A stretch of DNA of 64,000 nucleotides from a virus: IMG/VR virus record IMGVR_UViG_3300044769_000068, positions 36,620 to 100,619 of that record; one strand, 5' to 3'. The notes under the pieces are model-generated. The model made no database searches, was not told where the DNA came from, and was given only the letters and a program-made list of their open reading frames with translations. Numbering within the stretch: position 1 is the first letter of the stretch; the number at the start of each line of letters is the position of its first letter. The position numbers and the translations under genes are program-made. Positions 1,311 through 35,124 of this stretch are shown here, piece after piece.

Positions 1311-1985
1311 TTAGTCATTTCTTATCCAGACAGCGTCTCCTTGATTGCCGCCTAAATAGAGCGGTATGTAATACATTTCTTTGAAATTGTAAAACTCCAA
1401 AAGATGCTTCACTTCGGCATACACGTGCTGATCTTTCCACACGGGCAACCACTCAACTTCAATGTGTATAGATTTCATAGCTCTTATTGCATCGCCAAAG
1501 CTAATGAGAACTTCCCAAGTAAACCCTTCTACATCTATTTTGACGAGATCTATTTCTGGTTCGTTGATGAGTTGCAAGAGCTGGACACCGTTTATAGCTA
1601 ACACATTGATCCAATTTATTGGATGTGGCGCGCCCCAATACTTAGAAATGAATTCAGTGTCGGCTGATAGAATAGAACTTGTTCCCACTATATGATCTGG
1701 AAATACTGTAGCGGGTATAGCATTGAATTTAATGACACCTGGCTGATTAGAGATAGCTAATTCAAAAGACCTGTATTGCGGAAAGTTTTTCACGATTTGT
1801 TTGAATGATTCGGGATGCGGCTCAACGATAAACATCTTGTTGTCGGGTATGTCGGCTAGTTTTTGCACTATTTCTGCATGGAGCGCATCTCTAGATCCAA
1901 TTTCTAGAAAGTTTTTTGGCGGCTCTTTGAAGCGCTCAAGATACGTCTTGTAATATTGTTCCATTATTTTATGTTCCCTTGCCAT
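1311..1985 (-). CDS. FkbM-family SAM-dependent methyltransferase
   Basis: FLEIGS, FIVEPHP, ELAIS, LVKIDVEG and IHIEV motifs in FkbM order. Confidence 0.85.
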   Translation of the reverse strand: MAREHKIMEQYYKTYLERFKEPPKNFLEIGSRDALHAEIVQKLADIPDNKMFIVEPHPESFKQIVKNFPQYRSFELAISNQPGVIKFNAIPATVFPDHIVGTSSILSADTEFISKYWGAPHPINWINVLAINGVQLLQLINEPEIDLVKIDVEGFTWEVLISFGDAIRAMKSIHIEVEWLPVWKDQHVYAEVKHLLEFYNFKEMYYIPLYLGGNQGDAVWIRND

Positions 1986-6294: not shown

Positions 6295-8480
6295 CTCTCC
6301 ATTTCATTCATGTTTTGACCCTTATAAAGTTTGTAACTAAAGTTGGGTCGCAGTAACGTTTGTACATCTGTTTTGAAAACTTCATTCTGAATTAGTGTGG
6401 CTCCCTCTGCAATTATGTCTGGAACAGTGGCGAACACGCCAAATTCTACTTTGGCTGCATCAAGATGTTCATTCGGCACATTAAAGACAGCGGCGTCGAC
6501 ATTAAGGATACATTGCTTTATTTTCAGCTGTCTCGTATTTGCCAAGAATCTAAAGCAGTTCAATACCATAAGATCTGCAGTAGTAGATTGGAATGGAAAA
6601 TTGTGAGCGCTTAAGAACGACTTCCATAGGTTGTCTTTAGTAAGATCGTCCTCACTGAATCTCCGCTTTCTGAAGGATGTCGAGAAAACGCAAGCATTCT
6701 TTTCAAGGTAATCCTTCAGGTTGTTCTTATATTCTAACATCTTTCCATACTTATTATAGAATGCTACCTTATAGCTCTTCACATCTTCAACTCGCACACC
6801 TGCTTCGTTTGCAATAGTCGAATCGCCGGCCAGATTTAGCATGCTTAGAACAAACAGCTTAGCAATGTTTCTTTCCTTTTCGCCTATTTCTCCGCTAAAT
6901 AGTTCTTTTGCGAACCGCATGTAGAAGTCGCCATGTTCATTTAGATCGTTTATCATGTTTTCGTCTTGAACAATTAAAGCGGCTGATCTTAAATCGGCAG
7001 AGTCTAGATCAAGGTATACTAATGTATGCTCTGGATCGGCTTTAAAATGCACAGAACATTTTGAGCCAATTTTCATTCCGTTGAGGAAGGGTTTTCCGTA
7101 GTATAGTCGACCTGAAGTAGCCGAAAATACGAACAATTCAGGGTGCAACTTGCCGTCGCTTGAATCTTGGCACTTCTTTAAGGTGGGCTTTACAATGTTG
7201 TCTAGTTCCCATCCAGAACAAGCAGTTGATCCCTTTGCTAGTCCTTCGCAGTCAACAGTTATTCCATTCCATTCGCTTTCAAGCTTGACAGCCATTATTC
7301 TAGGGACTACTCTAGATGTGAATTTGGCAGCAATTGGGTCGAGCATAAGTTCTTCGTGCAACAATTCTGTAAGGGCATGTTCTCCAGCCGCATCGATAGC
7401 AGCATAAACTAAACTATTTGTGGCAGCTTCCATTATCTGTTCTATTGTATACGTTTTGTAGTTTTCAATGTAGTGGATGTACTTCATAACAAAAGAGTAT
7501 TGCGGGTAGTTAAGCAAGTCTCTAGAAGCAGCTTTAAGATTATAGCCCTCTACTTTTCTATTTTCTGATAAGGCATGAAGAAGCTGCATTCCATCCCATA
7601 TTCTATTGCACTTTAGGAATTCTTTGAAGTCTCTTCCATAGAAGTTGCACAACGAAAAGATGTCAAAGCCACAGTTCCAGGCAATAAATGTTTTGGGCTT
7701 TTCAAACAGATACTTTTCCCAGAGATCCTTTATTTCTTTGGCTTGTCCATTGGCAAGTCCGGCTACAAGACCCGGCAAGCTAAGATTGAACGCGTGGCCT
7801 ACGTTACCTTCAGTAGCCATTGAACCAATTCTTACGCTGTGCTTATTCTTGTCCCATATTTGCAAGCCATTTGTTTCTACGTCTATTGATACTCTAGTCC
7901 AATCGGGCAAGTCGAACATATTGTACAAATAAGCTTTAATTTCGTCGTAGTTGAAGTAAATCTTTGTCCGAGGTGAGAAGCCGTTTTCGACAACATCAAT
8001 TGGCCATTTGTGTCTTTCGGAGACGCTTTTCTGGAGATACGCTTCTCTTACTTCCGATTTGAAGTTGTTAGTGGCATCGACTAATGTTGTCATGAATGAT
8101 TCGAACGCTAGAAAAGTTTCTGGCTTAGACATTGTGAAGTCTATCGGTGGCATGAAAGCAATAAAGTAGTGCTTCTTGTCTCTACGAACGAAATACGAGA
8201 ACTTATGGACGTCCCTTTTAGGGTTGCCCGCCATCTTATCAAATTCGTCTATGTCTCTAAGGATGTGTTTGTATAGATTGCTGCCGAATACAATAAGGAT
8301 CTCGTCGTCCTTGATGTTGTAGCCTCTCATGGAGTCTACTCTATTAGCAACCTTAAGATTGATTTCTAGTTCTTTGTTCTTTTCTTTAATGTCCTTAAAG
8401 ATCTTAACTAGTTTTTCTAGATTCTCTTTCTTTTTAGCTGGCTCACATATAATTGTAATCATTCCTGAACCCGTTTGCAT
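6288..8480 (-). CDS. Family A DNA polymerase-like protein: degenerate UDG-like N-terminus, 3'-5' exonuclease, truncated polymerase domain
   Basis: ExoI IDVETNG, ExoII WNCGFD, ExoIII YAAID; TSGRL, DLDSADLR, RNIAK, NFPFQSTTAD and NVDA map to PolA motifs. Confidence 0.8.
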   Translation of the reverse strand: MQTGSGMITIICEPAKKKENLEKLVKIFKDIKEKNKELEINLKVANRVDSMRGYNIKDDEILIVFGSNLYKHILRDIDEFDKMAGNPKRDVHKFSYFVRRDKKHYFIAFMPPIDFTMSKPETFLAFESFMTTLVDATNNFKSEVREAYLQKSVSERHKWPIDVVENGFSPRTKIYFNYDEIKAYLYNMFDLPDWTRVSIDVETNGLQIWDKNKHSVRIGSMATEGNVGHAFNLSLPGLVAGLANGQAKEIKDLWEKYLFEKPKTFIAWNCGFDIFSLCNFYGRDFKEFLKCNRIWDGMQLLHALSENRKVEGYNLKAASRDLLNYPQYSFVMKYIHYIENYKTYTIEQIMEAATNSLVYAAIDAAGEHALTELLHEELMLDPIAAKFTSRVVPRIMAVKLESEWNGITVDCEGLAKGSTACSGWELDNIVKPTLKKCQDSSDGKLHPELFVFSATSGRLYYGKPFLNGMKIGSKCSVHFKADPEHTLVYLDLDSADLRSAALIVQDENMINDLNEHGDFYMRFAKELFSGEIGEKERNIAKLFVLSMLNLAGDSTIANEAGVRVEDVKSYKVAFYNKYGKMLEYKNNLKDYLEKNACVFSTSFRKRRFSEDDLTKDNLWKSFLSAHNFPFQSTTADLMVLNCFRFLANTRQLKIKQCILNVDAAVFNVPNEHLDAAKVEFGVFATVPDIIAEGATLIQNEVFKTDVQTLLRPNFSYKLYKGQNMNEMERW

Positions 8481-9510
8481 CTAAAACATGCACACTTTCA
8501 AAGTTATAGTTGAAATAGAAGTTTTGAATTTGATTAGTAAAGCCCTTCCCAAATAGCTTTATAGCGCTGTTTGGTCTGATCAAATCTATGAACACCCGCT
8601 GACAGTTGTCTATGTCGTAGGGTAGAATGACTATGTCTGATGATCGCATGTTAACGGTACAAAACATATCGATGCCTTTTGTCATATTTGTTCTAAAATT
8701 GACACCCATACTAGAAGTGCAGGAGCCCTGTGGCGGAACGATGTGAAACCTTCTAGACGTTAGTGGGTCTTCTCCATGGAATTTGATTTCGCTTTCTATC
8801 TTATAGAAGAGACTCGCAAACAAATAGCTATAGAAAGACTTGTAATTGTTGACGTCCATTTCGTATCGGGCTCTAGTTCCCTTTTCCAGCTTGGCCTTGC
8901 GAACGTAGTTTTCGGACTCTTCACATAGACTAGTATTCGTCATGTGCGAGATAGCGCTTTTGCAATCGGCTATTCTGACATTACGGAGTTCCTTGCCTGG
9001 GTAGCCAATGGATGACCCGAACGTCAAGACTAAACTCATCAAATTACGAACTTTATCGTGTATGTCGTATTTAACTATTTCATCAATCCACGTGGCAGCA
9101 TCGTCTACAAGAGTATCGATCCCTTTCGAGGTTGTATCCATCGGCTTAATGAATTTGATTGCACCCAGTTCGTTCTCTATTGCGTCTTTGTAGGCTCTAT
9201 TGACAGTCCGTATGTCAGATAGCTTATGCTCATCGTCACCCTCTTTATTGTATCTTTTCACGATTTCTTTGTCATCAGCATACAATATGATCATGGCGTT
9301 GTTGCACAAGAAATTTATGAGATCCTGCAACCATACAGCATCGTTGTATTCTTTTTCTCCACGAAGACAATTGTACATCATCCGAGTCATGATGCTTCTA
9401 TCGGACACAAAGTAGCGCTTGCTGTAGGGATACTTGTGTAGAAGGTTCTTTTGGAGGGTCGATTTACCCGTCTTGTCTCCGCCTTCTATGACTATGTTGG
9501 GAGTATACAT
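8443..9510 (-). CDS. dNMP kinase fused to a thymidylate-synthase-fold domain (dNMP hydroxymethylase/methylase-like)
   Basis: N-terminal IEGGDKTGKST and SDRS; C-terminal ELRNV, SRRF, GSCTSS, MRSSDIVILPYD and SVHV. Confidence 0.78.
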   Translation of the reverse strand: MYTPNIVIEGGDKTGKSTLQKNLLHKYPYSKRYFVSDRSIMTRMMYNCLRGEKEYNDAVWLQDLINFLCNNAMIILYADDKEIVKRYNKEGDDEHKLSDIRTVNRAYKDAIENELGAIKFIKPMDTTSKGIDTLVDDAATWIDEIVKYDIHDKVRNLMSLVLTFGSSIGYPGKELRNVRIADCKSAISHMTNTSLCEESENYVRKAKLEKGTRARYEMDVNNYKSFYSYLFASLFYKIESEIKFHGEDPLTSRRFHIVPPQGSCTSSMGVNFRTNMTKGIDMFCTVNMRSSDIVILPYDIDNCQRVFIDLIRPNSAIKLFGKGFTNQIQNFYFNYNFESVHVLDANGFRNDYNYM

Positions 9511-9511
9511 A

Positions 9512-12500
9512 TTACCTCGAGATCTTATCGATTAGTTTAAGTTGTCTCAGCTGATTGTAAGAATTGGAGCGCTGGAGTTTGCCGATATACAAATTGTTCG
9601 TATCCATTATATCAATTTTCTGATCGCCATCTTGTATTTCTTTATCACCCCAGTAGTAAACACGGGACATAGATGAAATTCCATCCGATAGCCCAACAAC
9701 GTAATACGGCTTGCCCTTCTTAGATTTCTTCTTTTCGACAGTAGAGATTCTGAAGACAGCAGCTAATTCACCCTCATTTTCAAGATCGACAACATCTTCA
9801 AGCATCCGCAACTTAAAGTCAGGATATTTCTCTTTGATACGATCTCGTTGGCCTACGAAATAGGTGACTTCTGTAAAACTGACATTCATGAGCTCTATCT
9901 CGTTGGCGATAATATCAGAGAGACTCCAAGACACTGGATCTTCCTTGTATTTTCTAATCTTGACGAATTCGTTATACATGTCTGCCCTAGATACTCCGCC
10001 CGCAATAGAATCCAAAGCTCCCGACTGGATAAGTGCAACGATAACTCTTTTGTTTTTGAGCTGCTTGTGATCCGAGTTAATAAAGTCATTAATTCCGGTG
10101 AAGGGTCTGCGTCGTATAATTTCTGCAGCAGCATCGGGAGTTATTCCTTTCACAAATGTTAGTCCGAATCTGATATTTCCATCTTTATCAATGGAGAATT
10201 CAAAGTCTGATTCGTTGACATCGACTGGTAGAATTTTAACCTTATCTCGTTTGATGAACTTTCCTTCTGATTCATAATAGATCGCACTAGTCTGGATGCG
10301 AGAGATATACTTTGCGATAGTTGATGTCCCATACTTGTCTTCTTTTGATCGAGCAGTGTTATTAAGCAGCGCAGTATAGAACTCTATTCCATAGTGAGCC
10401 TTAAGCCACAATTCGCGGAATGAAGTATACGTATATGAGTCAGAATGACTTTTGTTGAACGCATATCTTGAAAAGGCTCGGATTTGTTCCCAAAGCTCTT
10501 TTGCGACCTCCGCTGGCATCTTCTTGCTTGCGTTAGTAACGAACTTGTGTTCCCACGAGTCAACTCTTTTGAGTCTGGCAGTTTCGTATTTAGTTGACCT
10601 CTCATATTTTACGAGGTCTTTTCTTGACTTGTTGATTTCAATCGGATCAAATTCACCGAGCTCTTTGAAAAGGCGCATGAAGTCTTCTTGATAAACAACA
10701 ATGCCATAAGTGCCTTTGAGATAATCGGCGTAGCTTTCGTGTGTAAGATCACGCCAGTTTCCTGCGGCTTTTCTCTTTGCAAATTCAACGTTCATTCCCA
10801 TGTCCAGAGGTCCCGGGCGGATAATGGCGTTGATGGCTGAAAGATCGTCAAAGCATTCTGGCTTGACATCAAGAATAGTCTTAAGGGCTAGATTAGATTC
10901 AAACTGAAACACTCCAAAGAGATCTCCCTTTCTGGCTAAGGCGTACGCTTCTTTTGAGTCAATATCGATTTTATCCCAGTCAATGTCCACTTTGTGTCGG
11001 CTGTTAATAAGACGCACGGTGTCATTAACAACGGCCAAATTATTAAGTCCAAGTATATCAAACTTAACAAATCCTTGACCAGTAAGTTCATGATAGTCTC
11101 CACCTTCTGTGTTGGCTGTAACGATAAATTCTTTAGATCTGATAAGTGGGATCCAGTCGTAGATTGTGACTCCAGATACTACTACGCCTGCCGCGTGTCT
11201 ACCAGTTGCCTTGATAGAGTTGCGGAGACGCTTAAACAATGTTTCTACATTAGGATTCTGTTCAAAAAACTTCTTAACCTTTGGGAAGTGCGACAACAGA
11301 TAATCATACGGCATGTTGTCTAGTTGTTCTTTCTTTCCTTCGGTTGTGTAGATAGTAAATGGAAGATCTTTTGTTATCTCATTAACTGTCTGGTAGTCGA
11401 GGTTGTAGATTCGTGAGGCGTCTTTAATGCAACCTTTTACCTTGCCAATGTGATAGTTTCCAATCGTGGCTACCTTATCGGCGCCATATTTGTCCACAAG
11501 ATATTGCTTGACCTCGTCACGCACCGCGGGCGAAAAATCGATATCGACGTCTGGAAGGTCTTTTCTGCCTTCATCAAGAAACCGTTCAAACAACAAGCCA
11601 TGTTTAATCGGATCGACATCTGTGATTTCTAGCAAGTAGTTAATAAGAGAACCTGCCGCCGAACCTCTGCCTGCGCCTACTTCATAGCGACCAAATTTCT
11701 GTTTAGTCCACTTGATCATGTCTTCTAGAATGAGGAAGTAGTCTACGAAGCCTAATTTGATAATAATATCATACTCATGTCTGCAACGCTGGCGATATAC
11801 TTCATTTTTGCTGAAGCCTTTGACGACAAGAGCGTCCGCTACTTTCTGATACAAAACTCTTGCGGCGTCTTCATAAAGCTTAGGGATCTTGAGGCTTGTA
11901 TCTAGTTGGAAGCTGTCTACTTTTGAGAAGACTTCATACGATCCGTTTATGGCCGCAGCTACGGCTTCTTTTTCGTCTGCTGGAGGGTTATCTCCGAACC
12001 ATCGTCCTTCTTTCCAGTCCTTTATGATCTGATCGAACGTCTTAAGATAGAGGTCCTTTACAACAAACTCCCACAGCTTTTCGTTTTCATTGTCCGCCTG
12101 ATCCTCTTCTGACACTTCTTCCTCTGATGGTTCTTTTTCCTTTTCTTCTGTGTACGACTTCTTTGTTTGAAGCAACAGAATAGCTTCATGCACCTTCTGG
12201 TCGTTCGGATAGAGGTAGTGAGCGTCCGTTGTTACTATCGGAGTGACTCCCATCTCCTTTGCAATAGCCCAAAGTTTTGGATTCAATCTCCACTGATGAG
12301 AATAGTCCATCGACATCAGTTCGATGTAGAAATTGTCACCAAATTCGTCTTTGTACTTTTTCACGTATGCTCTGGCTTCGTCCATCTTATCATGTTCTAA
12401 TAGACGGTTGAGCTCTCCTCCCGCGCATGCAGTCGAAACTATAATGCCCTCTTTGTTTTCTGACAACAACTTAAAGTCGATAAGAGGGAACCGATAGAAC

Positions 12501-13495
12501 GATTCGATAAATGACAGCGAAGTGATTTTGAATAGGTTCTTAAGCCCTGTGTAGTTCTTGGCGATGAGAAGAATGTGATGTCTAGGATTGCCGTGAATCT
12601 TGCGTTGTTCAACTGCGCCGTCTTCTTTGCTACCAATGAATGGCATGAGAGCAGCTCTATCAGCAATCATGTATGCTTCAGTCCCAAAAATTGGCTTGAT
12701 GCCAACTTTTCTGGCGGCTTCGTATTGCTTAAAGAAAACGGAGATGTTGCCATGGTTGGTAAGCGATACAGCAGGCGATTTGTGTTTGAGAGCCCATATG
12801 ATATGTTCTTCCGCGGTTCCAATTCCATCTCGGATAGAAAATTCATTGTGGACATGCAAGTTTACGAAATTCTTGACTTTGATCTTTTTGATTAATTCTT
12901 TGAGATGCGAAAAGTTGTCGCTGGCACCTACGCCGCCCTTTCTAGCAAAGAACGAAGGATGATAGGCTCTAGCAATTGTGTAGTTCCCATTCTTGACAGG
13001 GCCTGCGTAATGATCGAAGGCCAATCCAAAGATGTTGGAAACTGTTTCGCCTAAACATATGATAAGTTCGGGATCGACTATTTCAAGTTCTCTTACGAAC
13101 TTTTGAGAGATGCAAGTAGGTAAAACCTTTAGATCGATTTTGTTGTCTTCAGTTGAGCACTTCTGAATATTTGTAATGTAAACTGTTTCGAAAGAAAGAC
13201 CTACTTCTGCTAGCATTTCTTTCATCATATCATAATGGTTGCTGTCTTCTGGCCCGAACACGTGATTGCCTCGGCGATTATGTGAAGGATTCATTCCTAC
13301 TAACATAACACGCGCTCGCGGATAGCCGCTGGGCTTAACGAACTCTTTATTACATTCTAATTTGAGAAGTGGGCAGGCTTGGCATTCAACCGACGAAGTG
13401 TCTTCTATTGCGTCAACTATGTCAGCAAAATTTGAATCAATTTCTATTGGTTGTACTGCGTAACTAACTCCCGATATTGCTATTGCTTTCGTCAT
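9512..13495 (-). CDS. dnaE: DNA polymerase III alpha subunit with N-terminal family-4 uracil-DNA-glycosylase-like domain
   Basis: PHP (HVHNEFS..DG, TDAHY), GRGSAAGSL, PDVDIDF, GRHAAGVV, KFDILGL, FNKSHS; N-terminal CQAC..ITNIQKC..C..YHPS. Confidence 0.95.
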   Translation of the reverse strand: MTKAIAISGVSYAVQPIEIDSNFADIVDAIEDTSSVECQACPLLKLECNKEFVKPSGYPRARVMLVGMNPSHNRRGNHVFGPEDSNHYDMMKEMLAEVGLSFETVYITNIQKCSTEDNKIDLKVLPTCISQKFVRELEIVDPELIICLGETVSNIFGLAFDHYAGPVKNGNYTIARAYHPSFFARKGGVGASDNFSHLKELIKKIKVKNFVNLHVHNEFSIRDGIGTAEEHIIWALKHKSPAVSLTNHGNISVFFKQYEAARKVGIKPIFGTEAYMIADRAALMPFIGSKEDGAVEQRKIHGNPRHHILLIAKNYTGLKNLFKITSLSFIESFYRFPLIDFKLLSENKEGIIVSTACAGGELNRLLEHDKMDEARAYVKKYKDEFGDNFYIELMSMDYSHQWRLNPKLWAIAKEMGVTPIVTTDAHYLYPNDQKVHEAILLLQTKKSYTEEKEKEPSEEEVSEEDQADNENEKLWEFVVKDLYLKTFDQIIKDWKEGRWFGDNPPADEKEAVAAAINGSYEVFSKVDSFQLDTSLKIPKLYEDAARVLYQKVADALVVKGFSKNEVYRQRCRHEYDIIIKLGFVDYFLILEDMIKWTKQKFGRYEVGAGRGSAAGSLINYLLEITDVDPIKHGLLFERFLDEGRKDLPDVDIDFSPAVRDEVKQYLVDKYGADKVATIGNYHIGKVKGCIKDASRIYNLDYQTVNEITKDLPFTIYTTEGKKEQLDNMPYDYLLSHFPKVKKFFEQNPNVETLFKRLRNSIKATGRHAAGVVVSGVTIYDWIPLIRSKEFIVTANTEGGDYHELTGQGFVKFDILGLNNLAVVNDTVRLINSRHKVDIDWDKIDIDSKEAYALARKGDLFGVFQFESNLALKTILDVKPECFDDLSAINAIIRPGPLDMGMNVEFAKRKAAGNWRDLTHESYADYLKGTYGIVVYQEDFMRLFKELGEFDPIEINKSRKDLVKYERSTKYETARLKRVDSWEHKFVTNASKKMPAEVAKELWEQIRAFSRYAFNKSHSDSYTYTSFRELWLKAHYGIEFYTALLNNTARSKEDKYGTSTIAKYISRIQTSAIYYESEGKFIKRDKVKILPVDVNESDFEFSIDKDGNIRFGLTFVKGITPDAAAEIIRRRPFTGINDFINSDHKQLKNKRVIVALIQSGALDSIAGGVSRADMYNEFVKIRKYKEDPVSWSLSDIIANEIELMNVSFTEVTYFVGQRDRIKEKYPDFKLRMLEDVVDLENEGELAAVFRISTVEKKKSKKGKPYYVVGLSDGISSMSRVYYWGDKEIQDGDQKIDIMDTNNLYIGKLQRSNSYNQLRQLKLIDKISR

Positions 13496-14504
13496 CTGTA
13501 ATTTCCTTTATGAATGAGATTGCTTCCTGTAGGTTGTCTACGGGCTTGCATTCCTCAACGCTTTGCCATCCGCCATCGATATCATATTTGTTCGTTTCGT
13601 TTCTTACGTAAATGTTGCATACGTTAGGACGTTCAGCGGTATTAATAAGATTATATACATTATCTTCGATAAAGTACACCTCTTTGTTATTGAATCGATC
13701 GAAAAAGTACTTTTTCTCACCGAGGTCTGTGAAATGAATCATGTCTACCCATTGACTCATTCCTCTGTTGAACAACCACTCAACCGTATACATATACAGA
13801 ATAGGGTAAGTTTTGACGGGTCTATTGGTGAGAAGAGATACTATCCCTTTTTTGTGACAAATACGAAGAAGGTCTCTTGCGTTATCTACAGCGGGCAAAA
13901 TCATTTTAAATCCACAAAGTCGATATTCTTCTTTGAGTTCTTTATAGAGGTCTATGTTAGCACTTCTCCACGTGCAAAAGTCTTGAAACGTCTCAAACTT
14001 TCCGATGCCAATTTTATCTCCAAACCACGTTCTATATGCAAGCCCAATATCAGCTAATACGCCATCTATATCGATAATGAAAGTATACTGAGCGCTCTTG
14101 AATTTGTCGCTGTTCATGAAAAGCCGCTGATTGAATTTCTGGTCTATAGTCTTGTTTTTCATGTTTATTTTGCGGACTAACTCATCATAACTGATGTCAA
14201 ATTCGTGACAGACATTGAACGCGTATTTCATAATGTCCACTACAGCGTCAGCCGCTTCTACTTTTTGTAGAAGAAGAGAGTTAGCTTTGTGCTCTTTTGA
14301 AGGGTCCCAATCGAGAGTGTTCATGACATCAGTAACGTTCTTGTTGATGCCGATGCAATAATCCTTTATTCTATCGACATGCGTCTTGTTAGCGTATTCT
14401 ACTTGATTTATTTTGTCGAAGAAAACTTTTTGAAGATCATACAGATTTTTCATTCTTCTTCCCATTAAACTTTCTTGTATAGTTGTGAGCCCAATGGATA
14501 ACAT
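13464..14504 (-). CDS. Dimeric dUTPase/dCTPase-like (all-alpha NTP pyrophosphatase) domain fused to a HAD 5'-nucleotidase-like domain; probable start 14453
   Basis: N-terminal LDW....H, AVVDIMKY, KN..IDQK; C-terminal IDIDGVLAD, LTNRP, FIEDN. Confidence 0.72.
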   Translation of the reverse strand: MLSIGLTTIQESLMGRRMKNLYDLQKVFFDKINQVEYANKTHVDRIKDYCIGINKNVTDVMNTLDWDPSKEHKANSLLLQKVEAADAVVDIMKYAFNVCHEFDISYDELVRKINMKNKTIDQKFNQRLFMNSDKFKSAQYTFIIDIDGVLADIGLAYRTWFGDKIGIGKFETFQDFCTWRSANIDLYKELKEEYRLCGFKMILPAVDNARDLLRICHKKGIVSLLTNRPVKTYPILYMYTVEWLFNRGMSQWVDMIHFTDLGEKKYFFDRFNNKEVYFIEDNVYNLINTAERPNVCNIYVRNETNKYDIDGGWQSVEECKPVDNLQEAISFIKEITDDESNSNIGS

Positions 14505-15393
14505 CCTCAGTCTTTATGGAGTGATTCATTTGAGCATAGCGTCCCACTAACTTTATAGAACCAAGCTCTCTAAGCTTCAAGCTTCTTGATATTTGAGTAG
14601 CTGTTTTGATGCTATCCAATACCCATTCTCCGTAGATAGCAAGAAACGCTTCTGGAGTTTTTGTTTCATACACCCATTTGTCTAGTTCTGGTACATACGT
14701 TTTGCGGTGCCAAGGATCAGTAACACTGTAAATGTAATCGAACTGTCCTCTGCCCTTTTCGTCAACAAGAAAGAAATTCATGAGGTCTGGAGTTGTTGAG
14801 ATCTTAACTGTCACAGAAGTGTTGGACAACATCCCAGTTAAAGCGGGCAAAGGAATAGTTGATATGATATTGTCTCCGTAGAAAACGTCTTTATCCGTTG
14901 TCACTTTTCTATGTGAGATGTTCTTTATGTTAGCTATTATAATATGGTTGCTATCAGATTTTCCTGCTAAATCCAAACAGCGCTTAAGAAGTGATTTGCC
15001 CAATGCTACTTGAGAAACTTCAAACGCTGTGAAACTAGACTTCCCACCGCCGGTTAAATGTGATGATTCTGTTCCATTAGTTCCGTGTGCTTTGAAGGCA
15101 TATTTGTTCTTAAAGTCGTCGGTGGCAAAATTGCGAACGTCGTCGTTAATCTTATAGCCGATGAAGACTTCTCTTGTTTTAGTAGGAAACCCTAACCTAC
15201 GAAGTAAGGCTTCAGTGTCCTTGTTTTGGTGCAGGAATCTAGGGCCAAGTGGAAACTTTGTGTTAGTCTGGCTTGCGATGTTGTTCGTTATCACAAGGTT
15301 TCTGGTTCTAGTTGATTCTGCAAGGTAATGAAAGACTGTTAGTCCGGCAATACCTGATCCAAGGATCACATTGTCGTAGTTAGGGTTGGCCAT
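14437..15393 (-). CDS. FAD-dependent oxidoreductase, UDP-galactopyranose-mutase-like architecture
   Basis: ILGSGIAG dinucleotide-binding motif, LGPRFLH, IISTIPL, C-terminal VGRYAQMNH. Confidence 0.75.
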   Translation of the reverse strand: MANPNYDNVILGSGIAGLTVFHYLAESTRTRNLVITNNIASQTNTKFPLGPRFLHQNKDTEALLRRLGFPTKTREVFIGYKINDDVRNFATDDFKNKYAFKAHGTNGTESSHLTGGGKSSFTAFEVSQVALGKSLLKRCLDLAGKSDSNHIIIANIKNISHRKVTTDKDVFYGDNIISTIPLPALTGMLSNTSVTVKISTTPDLMNFFLVDEKGRGQFDYIYSVTDPWHRKTYVPELDKWVYETKTPEAFLAIYGEWVLDSIKTATQISRSLKLRELGSIKLVGRYAQMNHSIKTEDVIHWAHNYTRKFNGKKNEKSV

Positions 15394-16466
15394 TATTTCC
15401 TCGCATCGAATGCGTTGTCACCAAAGATAGCAAACAACAGGTCGTCCACACTCTGGTAGGCGTTGTTAAGTATGAATTCCTCGTCGAATAGAGCTTTGTC
15501 TTTATTGCTCAATTTATCGTAATCATTTTCTCCGTATTTAATCCACTCTGTAGGTCCTGGCATCTTAAACCCATGCTCTGCAAGCTCTTCATAGCTAGAG
15601 CAGCTCACATTAAATTCTGAATATTGTTCTTTAGTCGGCCATCTGCCACAGCAAGCAAATAGTGAACTAAAGTATTTTGTCATTCCTTCGGGACCTTCGT
15701 GATAGATACATCTCTTTGCACCATCGCATGCAGGCCGCAAATAGTTTGCTAATAGGGGGAATTTCCGTCCCACAAGCTCTCGAAGAGCAATATGGAGAGC
15801 AACTATCGAGCTTTCCTCGCAAGCCATTAGTCTCCGGCTGCACTGGCCCTTCAAGGCGAGATAGTTCTGTGTAAAGACGTATGAGTGATTTACGCTCATC
15901 GGGAGGAAAGCTCTCCCACTCTGCCATGACCCCTGACCAATCGAGATCGCTGATTCGTATAGGTCTTTCGTTGCTCTTATCCATTTTTCTACCTCGTATG
16001 CGAAAGCCGCATCCGTTTCCATTCTTTTGCAAACGTCCGGGTAAAATAGGAAATCTGCATCAAGTTTGTTGTTATCTCTTGTTCCAATAGAGGCGAAGGC
16101 GGTTCCGATTCGGACTCTTGCATGCTGGTCAAAAGTATGTCGTGGTGTCCCATTAACTTCGAAAGTGAATTGGACAGCTTCAGCAGCTTGAGGTAGGGTG
16201 TTTCCTGTGAGGACTGCAAGTACGATGCGATATCTGTTCTCAGGAGTAAGTCGTTCCCATTTTCCAGTTGATCCGGTTTCATTGTCGCCCCACGTCGCTG
16301 CAGCCATCGAAGCGATTGCACGGTACGGATTCTTTGTGCAATCATTCATCGCAACATACAGCGCATCCAGTGAATTTTTCCAACTATATGTCTTCTTGGG
16401 AGCCTGAGATGGCAAGGTTCCCATTGCTTCTCTCATGTTGTCTACTTGATCTTTATAGTCACTCAT
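15393..16466 (-). CDS. Divergent ThyX-family flavoprotein
   Basis: FTFEVNGTPRHTFDQHARVRIGTAFASIGTRD, GRAFLP and SRRL align with the canonical ThyX at 18527; several catalytic positions differ. Confidence 0.75.
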   Translation of the reverse strand: MSDYKDQVDNMREAMGTLPSQAPKKTYSWKNSLDALYVAMNDCTKNPYRAIASMAAATWGDNETGSTGKWERLTPENRYRIVLAVLTGNTLPQAAEAVQFTFEVNGTPRHTFDQHARVRIGTAFASIGTRDNNKLDADFLFYPDVCKRMETDAAFAYEVEKWIRATKDLYESAISIGQGSWQSGRAFLPMSVNHSYVFTQNYLALKGQCSRRLMACEESSIVALHIALRELVGRKFPLLANYLRPACDGAKRCIYHEGPEGMTKYFSSLFACCGRWPTKEQYSEFNVSCSSYEELAEHGFKMPGPTEWIKYGENDYDKLSNKDKALFDEEFILNNAYQSVDDLLFAIFGDNAFDARK

Positions 16467-17720: not shown

Positions 17721-18188
17721 TCAAACTTGTATGTAGACGATTTCTACGCCCGCTTCACTGAAAAGTTCTTCGGCTAGTTTCGTTTGTTCTTTCCATCTTT
17801 CTGCGAAATCGTTGTTGATTTTGGGTGAAACAACCTTAAAAATTCCAGATTGAATAATATGGACGGCGCATCTTTCGCAAGATTGTCCGGGCCAATTGTA
17901 CAGCGTGTATCCGTCGAGCCTCTCTCTAGATGAAAGAATAGCATTCATTTCGCAATGGATAGTTCTCTTATATTTCTCTTCTCTATTGCTTAGAAGCTCT
18001 TCCCGATCTTTTATCGCCCTTGGAAATCCATTATATCCTACTGCGGCGACGGTTGAATCTGGCCGGACAATAACACACCCAGTTTTCGTCGACGGATCTT
18101 TTGACCAATTAGACACGTGTTCGGCTAGATAAAGAAATCGAACATGCTTTTTAGAAATGCTATTAATTGGGAAGATTTCTATGGTCAT
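17721..18188 (-). CDS. dCMP deaminase
   Basis: SKDPSTKTGCVI, GYNGFP, HCEMNAI and SCERC zinc motifs. Confidence 0.92.
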   Translation of the reverse strand: MTIEIFPINSISKKHVRFLYLAEHVSNWSKDPSTKTGCVIVRPDSTVAAVGYNGFPRAIKDREELLSNREEKYKRTIHCEMNAILSSRERLDGYTLYNWPGQSCERCAVHIIQSGIFKVVSPKINNDFAERWKEQTKLAEELFSEAGVEIVYIQV

Positions 18189-18526: not shown

Positions 18527-19153
18527 TTACTCCTCGAATTTAATGTCTGCAAATATGTTGGCGGCACCAATTCTCATCACTTGCTCCCACATCTCTTTTG
18601 CCATGTTTCTGATTTCCCATTGAGCGTGTTTAGAAGTCCTGAGTTTGAAGAAATGGCGGAGCTCTCTAAAATTCATTGTAATAATGATTTCGGAGCAACA
18701 CGCGTTGGGTAGAACAAATCTAGCATCTTCTCCCTTGACGCCCATCTTCAATAGTTCGTTATATGTATTCCAAGCGAATAACATGGCATTCTCAAACTTG
18801 GCTCTGGCCATTTGATTCTGGCTACTAACTCCGATGTTCTCTTTATTGTCTAAGATGCTTGGAGGCGTTACATAGTTGGGCTCTGATTCTTTGACATACC
18901 GCTGGCTTCTTTGCGAGTAACTAGCAATCCGATGCCTAACCAGCTGATGAGTAAGAGCTCTGGAAACCCCACCCACTCTATAAGTGACACTAGCATGCTC
19001 AAGAACAGATTCATGGCCGCTCCTTATTAGATGGTCTATGATGCGGACATGACTACCAGGGCTCTTCTTTTCAAACGAGTCGTAGCAGATTCTGGCAGCC
19101 TCTTCGATTAATAGTTCGGGCGCTGGTGTGAATGCAATGATTTCTACTTTCAT
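18527..19153 (-). CDS. thyX: Flavin-dependent thymidylate synthase
   Basis: GHESVLEH, SRALTHQLVRHRIASYSQRSQRY, ARFVLPN, AQWEIR. Confidence 0.96.
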   Translation of the reverse strand: MKVEIIAFTPAPELLIEEAARICYDSFEKKSPGSHVRIIDHLIRSGHESVLEHASVTYRVGGVSRALTHQLVRHRIASYSQRSQRYVKESEPNYVTPPSILDNKENIGVSSQNQMARAKFENAMLFAWNTYNELLKMGVKGEDARFVLPNACCSEIIITMNFRELRHFFKLRTSKHAQWEIRNMAKEMWEQVMRIGAANIFADIKFEE

Positions 19154-30452: not shown

Positions 30453-31250
30453 TTACTTCTCCTTATTGCGGATATATTTATTCCATGCTGAAAGGTTTTC
30501 TCTTATAGTTCTAGGGTACAGCCAATCGATATCGATTATTTGAAATTTGGGCTGATCTGTTCGTCCTACGATATTGTCTAGCTTTTCGAATCTCGCTTCA
30601 ATGCCGGCTCTAACTTCAGGCGTATCGTATTCTGTGTGACAGAAATTGTTGAACTTCTCTTTGACTTTTTCGACACCGCCAAGCCAACCGAAATGATTTC
30701 CGCAATTAGAAAGATGATACGCATTAGCGTGGAAAGTTCCATCATTTCTATTAGGCCCAGTTCGCAAATAGCTCAAGCTGGGATTTTCACTATATATTCG
30801 TCCTGTTACTGCATACGGATGAGGGCATATGTAGCCCGGCTGCTGGACATTTATATAATAAAAGAACAGCCGCATATCTAGTCTTACTAATCCATGGCGC
30901 CGTGTTTCGGCTACTATTCTAGGGATATTCTCCCCGTTGATTATTTCGTCTATATCTGTTACTATAAGGACGTCATCATTTTCTATGTAGAATGGCCTTG
31001 CAGCAATATCACGTTGCCGTACTTCTTTATCCCATCGCCCCGGGCAATCAGCAAAGTCTTCTTCGTGCGCCACAATATACTTTACTTTGTTCCCGTATTT
31101 CCAAGCAGGGAAAGAGAGCGCTTTCGCTTTACCCGAATGAGTCACTTTAGACTCAACTACAACTATTCTGTCGACATACGGAGATTCTTCTTTTATCTTC
31201 AAATCGAGAAGATCTATTTCGTCGTAAAACATTGTCATGCTATAAATCAT
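30453..31250 (-). CDS. Glycosyltransferase family 17 (beta-1,4-GlcNAc transferase-like)
   Basis: FYDEIDLL, VDRIVVVES..THSGK.K, E..QR, VTDIDEI, HFGW. Confidence 0.85.
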   Translation of the reverse strand: MIYSMTMFYDEIDLLDLKIKEESPYVDRIVVVESKVTHSGKAKALSFPAWKYGNKVKYIVAHEEDFADCPGRWDKEVRQRDIAARPFYIENDDVLIVTDIDEIINGENIPRIVAETRRHGLVRLDMRLFFYYINVQQPGYICPHPYAVTGRIYSENPSLSYLRTGPNRNDGTFHANAYHLSNCGNHFGWLGGVEKVKEKFNNFCHTEYDTPEVRAGIEARFEKLDNIVGRTDQPKFQIIDIDWLYPRTIRENLSAWNKYIRNKEK

Positions 31251-34750: not shown

Positions 34751-35124
34751 ATCAACATCAGCTTTCTACTTAATTTTACGGGATCATTAATCTCATGCTC
34801 CCAAATTATGATGACTCTCCATCCACACCGCTCAAAACGACTAATTCGTTGCATCGTTTTGTACAGCGGCTCGTTTTTGTGCCAATAATCACCGTACACT
34901 TCAACAACAAGTTTCCGAGTTTTATTAATGAAATCCGGTCTAAGGTTATCGATCTTGAAGGATCCGTCTCCGGTAAAAACAAAGGCTGAACCAAGAACTT
35001 GTTGTAGTTTCCGTTCCAAGCCGTTGGGCCCTGCTCTTCTAGGCCGTCTTTTGATTTGGCTGAGTTGACGTCTGGCTCGAAGAATCTTTTCAATGTCATA
35101 CTCGTACCTATAATCTTTAACCAC
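34747..35124 (-). CDS. Vsr/DUF559-like endonuclease
   Basis: RPDF, VVEVYGDYWH, GWRVIIIWEHE. Confidence 0.82.
   Translation of the reverse strand: MVKDYRYEYDIEKILRARRQLSQIKRRPRRAGPNGLERKLQQVLGSAFVFTGDGSFKIDNLRPDFINKTRKLVVEVYGDYWHKNEPLYKTMQRISRFERCGWRVIIIWEHEINDPVKLSRKLMLI

What the first reader, a model, noticed from the sequence alone, without database searches (positions are those of the whole stretch)
15393..16466. Second ThyX with rewired active site
Seen by direct comparison with the canonical ThyX at 18527: GHESVLEH becomes GNTLPQAAE, RHR becomes RVR, and SQRY becomes GTRD, with a Cys-rich C-terminal extension. Established: in T. maritima ThyX, His53 binds folate and Ser88 lies in the SxRY motif. 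Inference: FAD and nucleotide binding are probably retained, but methylene transfer from folate may be lost, implying a new flavin-dependent reaction on a pyrimidine nucleotide.
Basis: partly seen in the sequence, partly recalled or inferred. Interest (0 to 1): 0.75.

Follow-up and report, generated by a model that had tools for sequence, protein, structure and literature searches.

The report
Rewired ThyX-like enzyme of phages
Beside an ordinary thymidylate synthase (ThyX), this uncultured phage has a second ThyX-derived enzyme that keeps the nucleotide-binding site but has lost the methyl-transfer residues. It belongs to an unstudied phage family that always travels with a sugar-mutase-like flavoprotein and probably makes a modified uracil nucleotide for phage DNA.

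Summary
ORF 15393-16466(-) is a real Thy1/ThyX-fold protein of 357 aa under strong purifying selection. The folate-stacking His, the RHR His and the Ser and Tyr of SxRY are replaced (L/N, V, G, D). The nucleotide- and flavin-phosphate-binding Arg/Gln set is invariant.

It belongs to a monophyletic, uncultured-phage family of about 150 clusters, distinct from canonical ThyX.

Three new facts bear on function.
1. The family co-occurs with a UGM-like flavoprotein and a dUTPase-like/HAD fusion in essentially every locus with enough flank.
2. In 40 of 69 loci the gene is duplicated into two adjacent half-degenerate copies. Each keeps exactly the residues that one ThyX subunit gives to the shared active site, so the composite site is under selection.
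3. A canonical ThyX or ThyA co-occurs in at least six lineages, which argues against redundancy. However, six of nine near-complete genomes have only the ThyX-like gene.

The Cys-rich tail is largely inherited from a canonical ThyX subfamily and is not part of the rewiring.

Best reading (about 0.5): a flavoenzyme that makes a C5-modified dUMP, not dTMP. Main rival (about 0.27): a divergent true thymidylate synthase.

The scan has met more distant ThyX-like/UGM-like pairs before, in Pbunavirus and Wifcevirus.

The parts
15393..16466 (-). ThyX-like gene (P0001, 357 aa), the finding itself
   Evidence: ORF and translation; Pfam Thy1 45.9 bits; ThyX fold at Z about 16; dN/dS 0.03-0.07
16179..16208 (-). 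Helix TGNTLPQAAE (residues 87-96), replacing GHxSxxEH. The folate-stacking His is absent and E96 (TmE58 equivalent) is kept.
   Evidence: Alignments. T90, L91 and E96 are 99-100% conserved.
16059..16118 (-). R117-V-R119 ... S126-I-G128-T-R130-D131-N132-N-K134-L-D136. This is the ThyX motif and active-site loop, with Ser changed to Gly and the Tyr lid changed to Asp.
   Evidence: Inteins of relatives are inserted at four points inside this stretch.
15900..15926 (-). WQSGRAFLP. R185 is the TmR147 equivalent (dUMP phosphate) and Q182 replaces E144.
   Evidence: alignment; 100% conserved
15813..15836 (-). R211-R212-LMA-C216-E217-E. R212 is the TmR174 equivalent (activates uracil N3/O4).
   Evidence: Relatives have an intein inserted at A215^C216.
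15597..15734 (-). Cys cluster region (C247, D248, C253, Y255, C273, R275, N286, C289), probably a metal site
   Evidence: Invariant in the family. C247, C253 and C273 are shared with a canonical-motif ThyX subfamily. The metal itself was not tested.
15477..15524 (-). Conserved acidic C-terminal tail DYDKLxxxDKxLF(D/E)E
   Evidence: D323, F327. Also kept on the A copy of split relatives. Role unknown.
14437..15393 (-). UGM/amine-oxidase-fold flavoprotein (P0003), translationally coupled to the ThyX-like gene and its constant partner
   Evidence: The family profile hits UDP-galactopyranose mutases in PDB at E about 1e-6. Fold search. Found in 50 of 69 ThyX-like loci, and every flavoprotein locus with at least about 8 kb of downstream flank has the ThyX-like gene.
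13464..14504 (-). dUTPase_2-like / HAD (NT5C-like) fusion, the third constant member of the module
   Evidence: PHROG hit and DxDG HAD motif. Relatives carry PF08761 + PF06941. Found in 51 of 69 loci, always next to the flavoprotein.
18527..19153 (-). Canonical ThyX (P0002) with intact GHESVLEH, RHR and SQRY
   Evidence: Pfam 233.8 bits; PDB ThyX at E 1e-36
17721..18188 (-). dCMP deaminase (source of dUMP)
   Evidence: Pfam PF00383, 50 bits
17051..17707 (-). Thymidylate-kinase-like dNMP kinase
   Evidence: Pfam PF02223, 34 bits
16459..16821 (-). Small HAD phosphatase overlapping the ThyX-like start by 8 nt; found in the window's clade only
8443..9510 (-). dNMP-kinase fused to a small TS-like domain. 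In 84%-identical relatives a free kinase plus an SDR epimerase sit at this position.
9512..13495 (-). DnaE with an N-terminal family-4-UDG-like domain. DnaE or a free UDG accompanies the module in most relatives.

Best explanation
P0001 is a catalytically active, ThyX-derived enzyme, probably still a flavoprotein. It binds a uracil-type deoxynucleoside monophosphate (most likely dUMP, possibly dTMP) in a ThyX-like active site shared between subunits. It has given up folate-dependent reductive methylation.

It works at the nucleotide-pool stage of a conserved phage module. The constant members are the ThyX-like enzyme, a UGM-like flavoprotein and a dUTPase-like/HAD fusion. A dNMP kinase, a UDG-like domain, an SDR epimerase-type enzyme and a small TS-like protein usually accompany them. 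Together they supply a C5-modified uracil nucleotide for phage DNA.

Shown here: the fold, the pattern of retained and replaced residues, purifying selection, the composite active site (from the natural split), the gene partnership, and co-occurrence with canonical thymidylate synthases.

Inferred: that the ligand is a uracil nucleotide, that a flavin is bound, and that the product differs from dTMP.

The chemistry is open. The invariant Asp131 replaces the Tyr lid over C5 and N5, as in ThyA-type hydroxymethylases, where a hydrophobic residue is replaced by an acid. I rank the options as follows:
(a) trapping of a 5-methylene intermediate by water, giving 5-hydroxymethyl-dUMP, either from dUMP plus a C1 donor or by VAO-like oxidation of dTMP;
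(b) O2-dependent 5-hydroxylation;
(c) reductive alkylation with an aldehyde or aldose larger than formaldehyde.
For: Fold and family: Pfam Thy1, and the model superposes on ThyX at Z 16.

Selection: dN/dS 0.03-0.07. The family forms a clade with 100/99 support, separate from canonical ThyX.

Residues (read against PMC6514825, PMC8316439 and PMC11940539):
- Kept at 99-100%: R109 (Mtb R87), Q114 (Tm Q75), R117 and R119 (R78, R80), R130 (R90), R185 (R147), R212 (R174) and E96 (E58).
- Replaced and fixed: H53 to L/N, H79 to V/A, S88 to G128, Y91 to D131.
- New invariants: N132, K134, D136 and H194.

Natural split: in 40 of 69 loci an adjacent A-then-B pair replaces the single gene. A keeps R109, the SIGxRDNNK loop, R185 and the E96 helix. 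B keeps Q114, R117, R119, R211, R212, C216, E217 and the Cys cluster. This is the division of labour between ThyX subunits C (plus B) and A described in PMC6514825.

Inteins in relatives sit at five points, all inside these motifs.

Partnership: the flavoprotein is in 50 of 69 loci and the dUTPase-like/HAD fusion in 51 of 69. The reverse search from the flavoprotein finds the ThyX-like gene wherever the flank is long enough.

Non-redundancy: a canonical ThyX co-occurs in the window's clade, L025/L028, L067, L030 and L110, and a full ThyA in L058.

dCMP deaminase lies next to or near the gene in many loci, which fits a dUMP-derived substrate.

Precedent: ThyA homologs that turned into flavin/O2-dependent 5-hydroxy-dCMP synthases, within clusters that hold a kinase and a phage UGM (PMC13326640).
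Against: - No biochemical datum exists for any member, and no cultured phage carries the family.
- Six of nine near-complete relatives have no other thymidylate synthase. Two of those six also encode a dCMP deaminase. The simplest reading of that pair is dTMP synthesis.
- The window's phage has a complete dTMP route (dCMP deaminase, ThyX, TMK-like kinase). If thymine is kept in its DNA, the role of a second uracil derivative is unclear.
- Flavin binding is uncertain, because the equivalents of H79, Mtb S71 and Mtb R190 are changed.
- The UGM-like and SDR partners could serve only a sugar-donor branch, unrelated to the ThyX-like step.
- An earlier check of the scan on the distant RTR-type clade judged that 'the plain dTMP-making reading fits' (note e1-213445).
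Confidence: 0.5

Rival explanations
1. It is a genuine but highly divergent thymidylate synthase (dUMP to dTMP). Asp131 and other residues take over the roles of Ser88 and Tyr91, and the UGM/renalase-like flavoprotein may act as its reductase. On this reading the canonical ThyX of the window's clade is a later, partly redundant acquisition.
For: - It is the only Thy1/TS homolog in six of nine near-complete genomes.
- dCMP deaminase is adjacent in L015/L016 and present in G001 and G006, which lack a canonical TS.
- All dUMP-binding and uracil-activating residues are kept.
- The gene lies in the replication and nucleotide-metabolism module.
- Earlier follow-ups on the RTR-type clade reached this reading (e1-207212; check under e1-213445).
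Against: - H53, S88 and Y91 are all lost. In T. maritima ThyX, S88A, R90A and Y91A cut the carbinolamine step by about two orders of magnitude or more, and Y91 mutation slows flavin oxidation about 1000-fold (PMC8316439, PMC11940539).
- A canonical ThyX or ThyA co-occurs in at least six separate lineages. ThyA and ThyX are otherwise largely exclusive (PMC5954106, PMC7824862).
- dTMP synthesis gives no reason for the near-obligate coupling to a UGM-like flavoprotein and a dNTPase-like/nucleotidase fusion.
Confidence: 0.27
2. It serves the sugar branch rather than the base branch. It would bind a uridine nucleotide-sugar or its precursor and cooperate with the UGM-like mutase and the SDR to make an unusual NDP-sugar. 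That sugar would then be put on a hydroxylated or hydroxymethylated base made by the small TS-like enzyme.
For: - Its constant partners are of sugar-nucleotide type: the UGM-like flavoprotein and an extended SDR of the Epimerase/RmlD type in 38 of 69 loci.
- Glycosyltransferases occur in several genomes.
- A phage UGM is used for UDP-galactofuranose in the RL38JI 5-hydroxycytosine cluster (PMC13326640).
Against: - The retained residues are those that bind a nucleoside 5'-monophosphate and polarise the uracil ring for chemistry at C5. Nothing in them points to a sugar moiety.
- The small TS-like gene is not constant. It was not detected in G011. The SDR is absent from the window's genome.
- GT1 and GT2 family genes are missing from several complete genomes.
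Confidence: 0.08
3. It is a non-catalytic nucleotide-binding subunit: a sensor, a scaffold of a dNTP-synthesis complex, or an inhibitor of host enzymes, built on a ThyX shell.
For: The catalytic Ser, Tyr and His are lost. A conserved N-terminal extension and an acidic C-terminal tail could be docking elements.
Against: - New residues (D131, N132, K134, D136, H194, E217) are invariant at the former reaction centre.
- The duplicated copies retain complementary half-sites, which keeps a complete active site in the A+B pair rather than just a binding surface.
- Inteins are clustered in these motifs, as is typical of catalytic cores.
Confidence: 0.05

Closest known systems
Canonical flavin-dependent thymidylate synthase ThyX/FDTS (T. 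maritima TM0449, M. tuberculosis ThyX; Pfam PF02511)
   Same: Same fold over the whole ThyX core (Z about 16). The same arginine/glutamine set binds dUMP and the FAD phosphates, and the same R174-type uracil activator is present. The A/B split shows the same active site built from several subunits (PMC6514825).
   Different: - The folate-stacking His53, His79, Ser88 and the Tyr91 lid are replaced by L/N, V, G and D.
- The active-site loop carries a new invariant D-N-x-K-x-D.
- It has about 35 extra N-terminal residues and about 110 extra C-terminal residues.
- It has an obligate UGM-like partner gene.
- It co-occurs with canonical ThyX or ThyA.
PolB, the ThyX paralog of polyoxin biosynthesis (UMP/dUMP C5-methylase, PDB 4P5A/4P5B)
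   Same: It is a neofunctionalised ThyX paralog that coexists with a housekeeping ThyX (PMC5954106), and it is among the structural matches (Z about 15).
   Different: PolB keeps the methylation chemistry and changes only the sugar specificity. Here the residues of the methylene-transfer step itself are replaced.
Phage 5-hydroxy-dCMP synthases (RB69 gp48, DLP3 gp80; ThyA-fold, flavin- and O2-dependent; PMC13326640)
   Same: A thymidylate-synthase-type enzyme has been turned from folate-dependent C1 transfer to another C5 chemistry at the mononucleotide stage. It sits in clusters with a dNMP kinase, sugar-nucleotide enzymes (a phage UGM in RL38JI) and glycosyltransferases.
   Different: The fold is unrelated (ThyA, not ThyX), and the substrate is cytosine (N177D signature). 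Here the R174 equivalent points to a uracil-type base. No activity is known for the ThyX-like family.
RTR-type ThyX-like proteins of Pbunavirus (14-1 gp60) and Wifcevirus (WFH_00064), with their UGM-like neighbour
   Same: - The ThyX histidines and the Tyr are lost and the Cys motif is kept.
- A UGM-like flavoprotein lies one or two genes upstream and matches the profile of the window's flavoprotein family (E 1e-8 to 1e-11).
- A HAD/kinase gene, an SDR and the DNA polymerase lie nearby.
- Pbunavirus DNA carries sugar-alcohol or pentose thymidine derivatives whose genes are unknown (PMC12191111).
   Different: - It is a different clade. Members score only about 43 bits on the family HMM, the loop reads T-S-R-A rather than G-x-R-D-N-x-K, and the long C-terminal tail is absent.
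- tblastn with P0001 or P0003 finds nothing in cultured phages.
- The link between these genes and the Pbunavirus modification is itself unproven (note e1-213445; part of that claim fell).
Bacillus phage SP-15 gp130, a second, very divergent Thy1 protein proposed as hydroxymethyluridylate synthase (PMC5977210)
   Same: It is a second Thy1-family gene beside a canonical one, in a phage whose DNA holds a C5-alkylated uracil made at the nucleotide level. It has SDR, NDT-type and HD-nucleotidase neighbours, like the sister 'GGRD' clade.
   Different: gp130 does not match the family HMM or BLAST. Its role is a hypothesis of the authors and has not been tested.

Membership tests
ThyX / Thy1 superfamily (PF02511) | Profile match above the curated cut-off, and the ThyX fold | tested here: met
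   45.9 bits against a cut-off of 24.8. VIA-align Z 16, rmsd 2.6 A, about 204 residues.
Functional thymidylate synthase ThyX (EC 2.1.1.148) | ThyX motif RHRxxSxxxxSxRY, with Ser88 and Tyr91 (T. maritima numbering) | tested here: not met
   The motif reads R-V-R ... G128-T-R130-D131. G128 and D131 are 100% conserved in 141 relatives.
Functional thymidylate synthase ThyX (EC 2.1.1.148) | Folate-stacking His53 in GHxSxxEH | tested here: not met
   The sequence is TGNTLPQAAE, with no His in any alignment register. E96 (the E58 equivalent) is kept.
Functional thymidylate synthase ThyX (EC 2.1.1.148) | dUMP-binding and uracil-activating residues (Q75, R78, R80, R90, R147, R174, Mtb R87) | tested here: met
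   Q114, R117, R119, R130, R185, R212 and R109 are 99-100% conserved.
Functional thymidylate synthase ThyX (EC 2.1.1.148) | Active site assembled from several subunits of an oligomer | tested here: met
   This is indirect. The A and B copies in 40 loci retain complementary residue sets that match the roles of ThyX subunits C/B and A (PMC6514825).
Functional thymidylate synthase ThyX (EC 2.1.1.148) | Bound FAD, NADPH oxidation and CH2-THF-dependent dTMP formation | not testable with these tools
   Only the RxR arginines of the FAD-phosphate site can be seen. The equivalents of H79, Mtb S71 and Mtb R190 are changed.
Functional thymidylate synthase ThyX (EC 2.1.1.148) | Sole thymidylate synthase of its genome (ThyA and ThyX largely exclusive) | tested here: inconclusive
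   It co-occurs with canonical ThyX or ThyA in at least six lineages, but is the only TS homolog in six of nine near-complete genomes.
UDP-galactopyranose mutase (for the partner P0003) | GxGxxG FAD fold plus the UGM-type Y..R and GR..W motifs; UDP-Galp to UDP-Galf activity | tested here: inconclusive
   The family profile hits eukaryote-type UGMs at E about 1e-6 over the middle domain, and the GRYAQWNH motif aligns with GRFGSWRY. Foldseek ranks amine oxidases, renalase and UGM about equally. At 318 aa it is shorter than UGM. Activity is not testable here.

The most novel reading that the evidence does not exclude
The ThyX scaffold has been repurposed for a flavin reaction at uracil C5 that no ThyX-fold enzyme is known to perform. 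Two versions fit the residue changes.

(1) A folate-independent, vanillyl-alcohol-oxidase-like oxidation of the dTMP methyl group. This would run the last ThyX step backwards to the 5-methylene intermediate, with Asp131 activating water, to give 5-hydroxymethyl-dUMP. It would explain why canonical ThyX or ThyA can coexist with the enzyme as substrate suppliers.

(2) Reductive alkylation of dUMP with an aldose instead of formaldehyde. The flavin-N5 iminium would form as in UGM, and the D-N-x-K-x-D loop would bind the polyol. The product would be a 5-(polyhydroxyalkyl)uracil nucleotide of the kind seen chemically in Pbunavirus (nucleoside mass 362 = dU + C5H10O4) and SP-15 DNA, whose genes are unknown.
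Probability: 0.2. Interest if true: 0.9.

Novelty: new variant of a known kind. Interest (0 to 1): 0.7.

Why it matters
Phage DNA hypermodifications decide which restriction, CRISPR and modification-dependent defences a phage escapes. Nearly all known pyrimidine pathways start from a ThyA-fold enzyme. In 2026 ThyA homologs were shown to have switched from folate to flavin/O2 chemistry. A ThyX-fold counterpart would be a second, independent route, and its flavin is already built in.

The family is widespread in uncultured, mostly aquatic phages, including 390-420 kb jumbo genomes. It has a fixed flavoprotein partner. It also offers a rare natural experiment: a homo-oligomeric enzyme split into two half-dead, complementary subunits, which maps the functional active site without a structure.

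The family also gives a concrete, testable candidate class for the 'orphan' sugar-like thymidine modifications of Pbunavirus phages, which are used therapeutically, and of SP-15. For flavoenzymology, an Asp in place of the Tyr lid over N5 and C5 is a defined change to probe.

Tried and rejected
1. Sequence search of P0001 against PDB found nothing by phmmer. Only the family profile reached ThyX weakly. The fold search settled the relationship.
2. tblastn of P0001, P0003 and an A copy against 50,697 cultured phage records gave no match. Methylophilales phage Melnitz, a weak hit of the RTR query, has only an ordinary ThyX in a T4-like context.
3. I first read the 1.44-kb matches of the marine clade as intein-bearing genes. 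The alignment showed two adjacent paralogs instead. True inteins occur in other relatives.
4. I considered the Cys tail a novelty or an Fe-S electron relay specific to the paralog. I rejected this as a distinguishing feature, because canonical-motif ThyX relatives share three of the cysteines. The metal type is unresolved.
6. The first search from the flavoprotein side, with the broad alignment, failed for lack of a conserved stretch. It was repeated with a narrower alignment.
7. SP-15 gp130 was tested as a possible member and matches neither the family HMM nor BLAST.
8. Glycosyltransferase families PF00534 and PF00535 were tested as a universal component. They are present in only 3-4 of 10 genomes, so O-glycosylation as the module's common end-point is neither supported nor excluded.
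9. The SDR epimerase was searched for in the window's genome and not found. The record is only 71% complete.
10. Literature searches for a described ThyX-like family, or for Pbunavirus modification genes, found none.
Full report
**Observation.** The ORF at 15393-16466 on the minus strand encodes 357 aa (P0001). It has an AGGAG 8 nt before the ATG. Its TAA stop overlaps the ATG of the next gene by one base (TAATG). The ORF lies in one long minus-strand operon of replication and nucleotide genes:
- class II RNR,
- canonical ThyX (P0002, 18527-19153),
- dCMP deaminase,
- a TMK-like kinase,
- a small HAD phosphatase,
- P0001,
- a Rossmann flavoprotein (P0003),
- a dUTPase-like/HAD fusion,
- DnaE fused to a UDG-like domain,
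- a kinase fused to a TS-like domain,
- a PolA-like gene.

The window belongs to a 116-kb viral record that is about 71% complete. It also carries portal, terminase and prohead protease genes.

P0001 scores 45.9 bits on Pfam Thy1, against 233.8 bits for P0002. BLASTP between the two is not significant. The AlphaFold2 model built on 70 relatives is confident (pLDDT 89.7). It superposes on T. maritima and M. tuberculosis ThyX at Z about 16, rmsd 2.6-3.0 A, over about 204-213 residues. dN/dS against close relatives is 0.03-0.07.

**The family.** A word-indexed search found 158 proteins. An exhaustive HMMER search found 153 representative clusters. All come from metagenomes or viral contigs, and some are mis-binned as archaea. 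None is in the collection of cultured phages. Sixty-five viral loci were fetched.

A maximum-likelihood tree of 78 sequences places the family in a clade with 100/99 support. Its sister is a 'GGRD' clade (motif RTRIGAGFxQxGGRD). Both are separated, with 97/80 support, from canonical ThyX and a few intermediates.

In 141 full-length members the following positions are 96-100% conserved: T90, L91, E96, R109, D113, Q114, R117, R119, S126, G128, R130, D131, N132, K134, D136, K167, Y170, Q182, R185, H194, R212, C216, E217, C247, D248, C253, Y255, C273, R275, N286, C289.

**Mapping onto ThyX.** I combined a profile-to-PDB alignment with a joint alignment that includes canonical ThyX sequences.

Retained residues (T. 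maritima numbering unless marked Mtb):

| ThyX residue | P0001 residue |
|---|---|
| E58 | E96 |
| Mtb R87 | R109 |
| Q75 | Q114 |
| R78 | R117 |
| R80 | R119 |
| R90 | R130 |
| R147 | R185 |
| R174 | R212 |

Replaced residues:

| ThyX residue | P0001 residue |
|---|---|
| T55 / Mtb S71 | Q93 |
| H59 | A97 |
| H79 | V118 |
| S88 | G128 |
| Y91 | D131 |
| R165 / Mtb R190 | L203 |
| H178 | C216 |

The literature assigns these roles:
- H53 stacks on the folate pterin and on the reduced flavin (PMC11940539).
- S88 and Y91 are strictly conserved acids for water loss from the flavin carbinolamine. Mutating them costs two to three orders of magnitude in rate (PMC8316439, PMC11940539).
- Y91 is the 'lid' over uracil C5 and flavin N5 (PMC6514825).
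- R174 activates uracil through N3 (PMC8316439).
- The RHR motif binds the FAD phosphates and ribityl chain as well as dUMP (PMC6514825).

So nucleotide binding and ring activation are kept. The residues specific to folate use and methylene transfer are all gone. An invariant Asp now sits at the reaction centre.

**The Cys-rich tail.** C247, C253 and C273 align with cysteines of a subfamily of ThyX proteins that still have GH(L/E)SxxEH, RHR and SQRY (P0240, P0248, P0252, P0214, P0265). Those proteins carry a fourth Cys two residues after the R174 equivalent. The presumed metal site is therefore older than the rewiring. What is new in this family is the further 60-residue extension with C289, and the conserved tail DYDKLxxxDKxLFEE.

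**A natural dissection of the active site.** In 40 of 69 loci the single gene is replaced by two adjacent paralogs in the order A then B (adjacent in 39 of the 40). A and B are each monophyletic (100/100), have long stems, and nest inside the full-length clade.
- The A copies (n=36) keep the N-terminal extension, T90, L91, E96, R109, the S126-D136 loop, K167, Y170, Q182, R185 and H194. They have lost Q114, R117 and R119, lack R211 and R212, and have no Cys tail.
- The B copies (n=35) keep D113, Q114, R117, R119, G207, R211, R212, C216, E217 and all the tail cysteines. They lack the N-terminus, the E96 helix, R109, the RDNNK loop and R185.

The review of Mtb and H. pylori ThyX structures (PMC6514825, section 3.1) describes each active site as built from three subunits. 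RHR and R199 (Tm R174) come from subunit A. R87, S105, R107 and Y108 come from subunit C. S71 and R190 come from subunit B. The A/B partition reproduces that division exactly. This is strong evidence that the family still uses a ThyX-type composite site, and that both the old arginines and the new D-N-x-K-x-D loop are functional.

Inteins give independent support. In other relatives they sit at five points, all inside these motifs: near residues 113-118, at A125^S126, at G128^S129, at N132^C133 and at A215^C216.

**Gene partnership.** I combined tblastn with the window's proteins and de novo clustering of 1,353 ORFs from 69 loci. The neighbours rank as follows:

| Neighbour | Loci (of 69) |
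|---|---|
| DnaE / UDG / kinase (one chained cluster) | 58 |
| dUTPase_2 + NT5C/HAD fusion | 51 |
| P0003-type flavoprotein | 50 |
| Extended SDR of the Epimerase/RmlD type | 38 |
| Small 124-aa protein | 27 |
| Small TS-like protein | 26 |

The order is often flavoprotein, fusion, x, UDG, SDR, kinase/mini-TS, ThyX-like. Loci that lack the partners have short flanks. Searching from the flavoprotein side gave 40 loci. Every one with roughly 8 kb or more of downstream DNA contains the ThyX-like gene (26 of 40; the other 14 are truncated).

P0003 folds confidently (pLDDT 90.9) into the amine-oxidase/renalase/UGM fold. Its family profile hits eukaryote-type UDP-galactopyranose mutases at E about 1e-6, including the C-terminal GR..W motif.

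The SDR is absent from the window's record. In 84-85%-identical relatives (L006, L008) it stands exactly where the window has the TS-like C-domain of its kinase fusion. So neither the SDR nor the mini-TS is constant. The ThyX-like gene, the flavoprotein and the fusion are.

**Is it redundant with thymidylate synthase?** Whole-record searches with PF02511 and PF00303 show a canonical ThyX together with the ThyX-like gene in:
- the window's clade (G000, G011, G016, G018, G021),
- L025/L028 (G014, complete, with the two genes adjacent; G031),
- L067 (G013),
- L030 (G033),
- L110 (G055, 207 kb).

A full ThyA occurs in the complete 391-kb genome G008. That makes at least six separate lineages.

On the other hand, six of nine near-complete genomes (G001, G004, G005, G006, G007, G009) have no other TS homolog. 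Two of these six encode a dCMP deaminase. This is the main support for the rival reading, that the protein is a divergent but real thymidylate synthase.

**Context in the literature.**
- No paper describing this family was found.
- PMC13326640 (2026) shows that ThyA-fold homologs of RB69, DLP3 and RL38JI are flavin- and O2-dependent 5-hydroxy-dCMP synthases. Their clusters hold a dNMP kinase and sugar-nucleotide enzymes (a UGM in RL38JI) and glycosyltransferases. ThyX homologs are not mentioned there.
- Notes of this scan led me to two further papers. PMC12191111 reports that Pbunavirus F8 and 14-1 carry thymidine derivatives of 362 and 390 Da, described as a sugar-alcohol derivative and a circularised aldopentose derivative, with unknown genes. 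PMC5977210 reports that SP-15 has a second, very divergent Thy1 gene proposed as a hydroxymethyluridylate synthase.
- I checked that 14-1 gp60 and WFH_00064 are ThyX-like proteins of an 'RTR...TSRA' type. Each has a flavoprotein one or two genes upstream that matches my flavoprotein profile at E 1e-8 to 1e-11. The ThyX-like/UGM-like partnership is therefore old and reaches cultured phages, although those belong to a different clade.
- The GGRD sister clade sits next to DnaE with an NDT-type glycosidase, a YfbR-type HD nucleotidase and a short-chain SDR. SP-15 has the same gene set around gp130, but gp130 itself does not match my HMM.
- An earlier check of the scan judged that part of the Pbunavirus cassette claim fell, because the mark is TG-specific and a plain dTMP reading fits. 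I keep that as a caution.

**Mechanism.**
Shown: a ThyX-type composite site under selection, with every uracil-nucleotide ligand kept and the C1-transfer apparatus replaced.
Inferred: the substrate is dUMP or dTMP, since an invariant Arg at the R174 position fits a 4-oxo pyrimidine, and a dCMP deaminase is often adjacent. A flavin still stacks on the base. The product is a C5-modified dUMP, which the module's kinase phosphorylates.

The Tyr-to-Asp change at the lid parallels the change from a hydrophobic residue to Asp or Glu that distinguishes ThyA-type hydroxymethylases from methylases (as summarised in PMC13326640). It also recalls the Asp next to flavin N5 in vanillyl-alcohol oxidase; that comparison rests on my own knowledge and was not tested here.

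Candidate reactions, in my order of preference:
1. Water capture of a 5-methylene intermediate, giving 5-hydroxymethyl-dUMP. This could start from dUMP plus a C1 unit, or proceed by oxidising dTMP. The dTMP route would make canonical ThyX or ThyA a supplier rather than a competitor.
2. O2-dependent 5-hydroxylation, as in the ThyA-fold enzymes.
3. Reductive alkylation with a larger aldehyde or aldose.

The UGM-like flavoprotein, the SDR and the HAD fusion would then do one of two things: build a sugar donor for later glycosylation, or process the side chain or the nucleotide pool. None of this chemistry can be decided with the tools at hand.

**Verdict.** The Cys tail is inherited, the gene is not always a 'second' ThyX, and a true-TS reading survives at roughly one chance in four. 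The family, its fixed flavoprotein partner and its natural split into complementary subunits are new as far as the searchable literature shows, and they are directly testable.

Noticed in passing
L041:9974-11501 and 39 other loci (e.g. L058:9965-11525, L038:9956-11496): In a large marine clade the ThyX-like gene is a tandem pair of half-degenerate paralogs (A about 272 aa, B about 240 aa) with complementary motif retention. The likely result is an A2B2 enzyme with only some sites complete.
   Followed up: yes
Proteins P0124, P0135, P0142, P0147, P0158, P0162: Family members carry inteins (Hint/Intein_splicing, some with LAGLIDADG or DUF559 endonuclease) at five different sites, all inside the conserved active-site motifs.
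   Followed up: partly
window 8443-9510 compared with L006:12406-13886 and L008:17106-18559: In otherwise syntenic, 84-85%-identical relatives, the TS-like C-domain of the window's kinase fusion is replaced by a separate extended-SDR (Epimerase/RmlD-type) gene. The window's record has no such SDR.
   Followed up: partly
window 30453-31250 (-): A 265-aa protein with a Glyco_transf_17 match (46 bits) lies between the recombination genes and the portal gene. It could be a DNA or a surface glycosyltransferase.
   Followed up: no
L071 (P0230 context) and the P0212 contig; SP-15 L115:33730-36911: The sister 'GGRD' ThyX-like clade sits directly after DnaE, with a nucleoside-deoxyribosyltransferase-like gene, a YfbR-type HD nucleotidase, a short-chain SDR and WhiB. 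Bacillus phage SP-15, whose DNA contains dihydroxypentyluracil, has the same gene set around its divergent Thy1 gene gp130.
   Followed up: partly
Proteins P0240, P0248, P0252, P0214, P0265: A subfamily of ThyX proteins with fully canonical catalytic motifs carries a four-Cys pattern (RLC ... PxC ... C ... CG) at the C-terminus, probably a metal site. I know of no description of it.
   Followed up: no
window 15477-15524 (-); also the A copies in L041, L058 and L038: The extreme C-terminus DYDKLxxxDKxLF(E/D)E is conserved even in the truncated A copies. It looks like a short docking peptide, possibly for a clamp or a replisome partner, but this was not tested.
   Followed up: no
L041:2199-3143 and L041:11501-13449: In the complete 145-kb genome, a PLP-dependent (PALP family) enzyme sits immediately upstream of the flavoprotein, and GroES/GroEL genes follow the ThyX-like B copy. 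GroEL also recurs in the P0049 contig.
   Followed up: no
window 34747-35124 (-) and 1311-1985 (-): A Vsr/DUF559-like small endonuclease lies next to the large terminase gene, and an FkbM-family methyltransferase lies near the DnaB-like helicase.
   Followed up: no
G008 (L058, 391 kb), G006 (L020, 424 kb), G055 (L110, 207 kb): The module also occurs in jumbo-phage genomes. G008 combines it with a full-length ThyA, and G055 with a canonical ThyX.
   Followed up: partly
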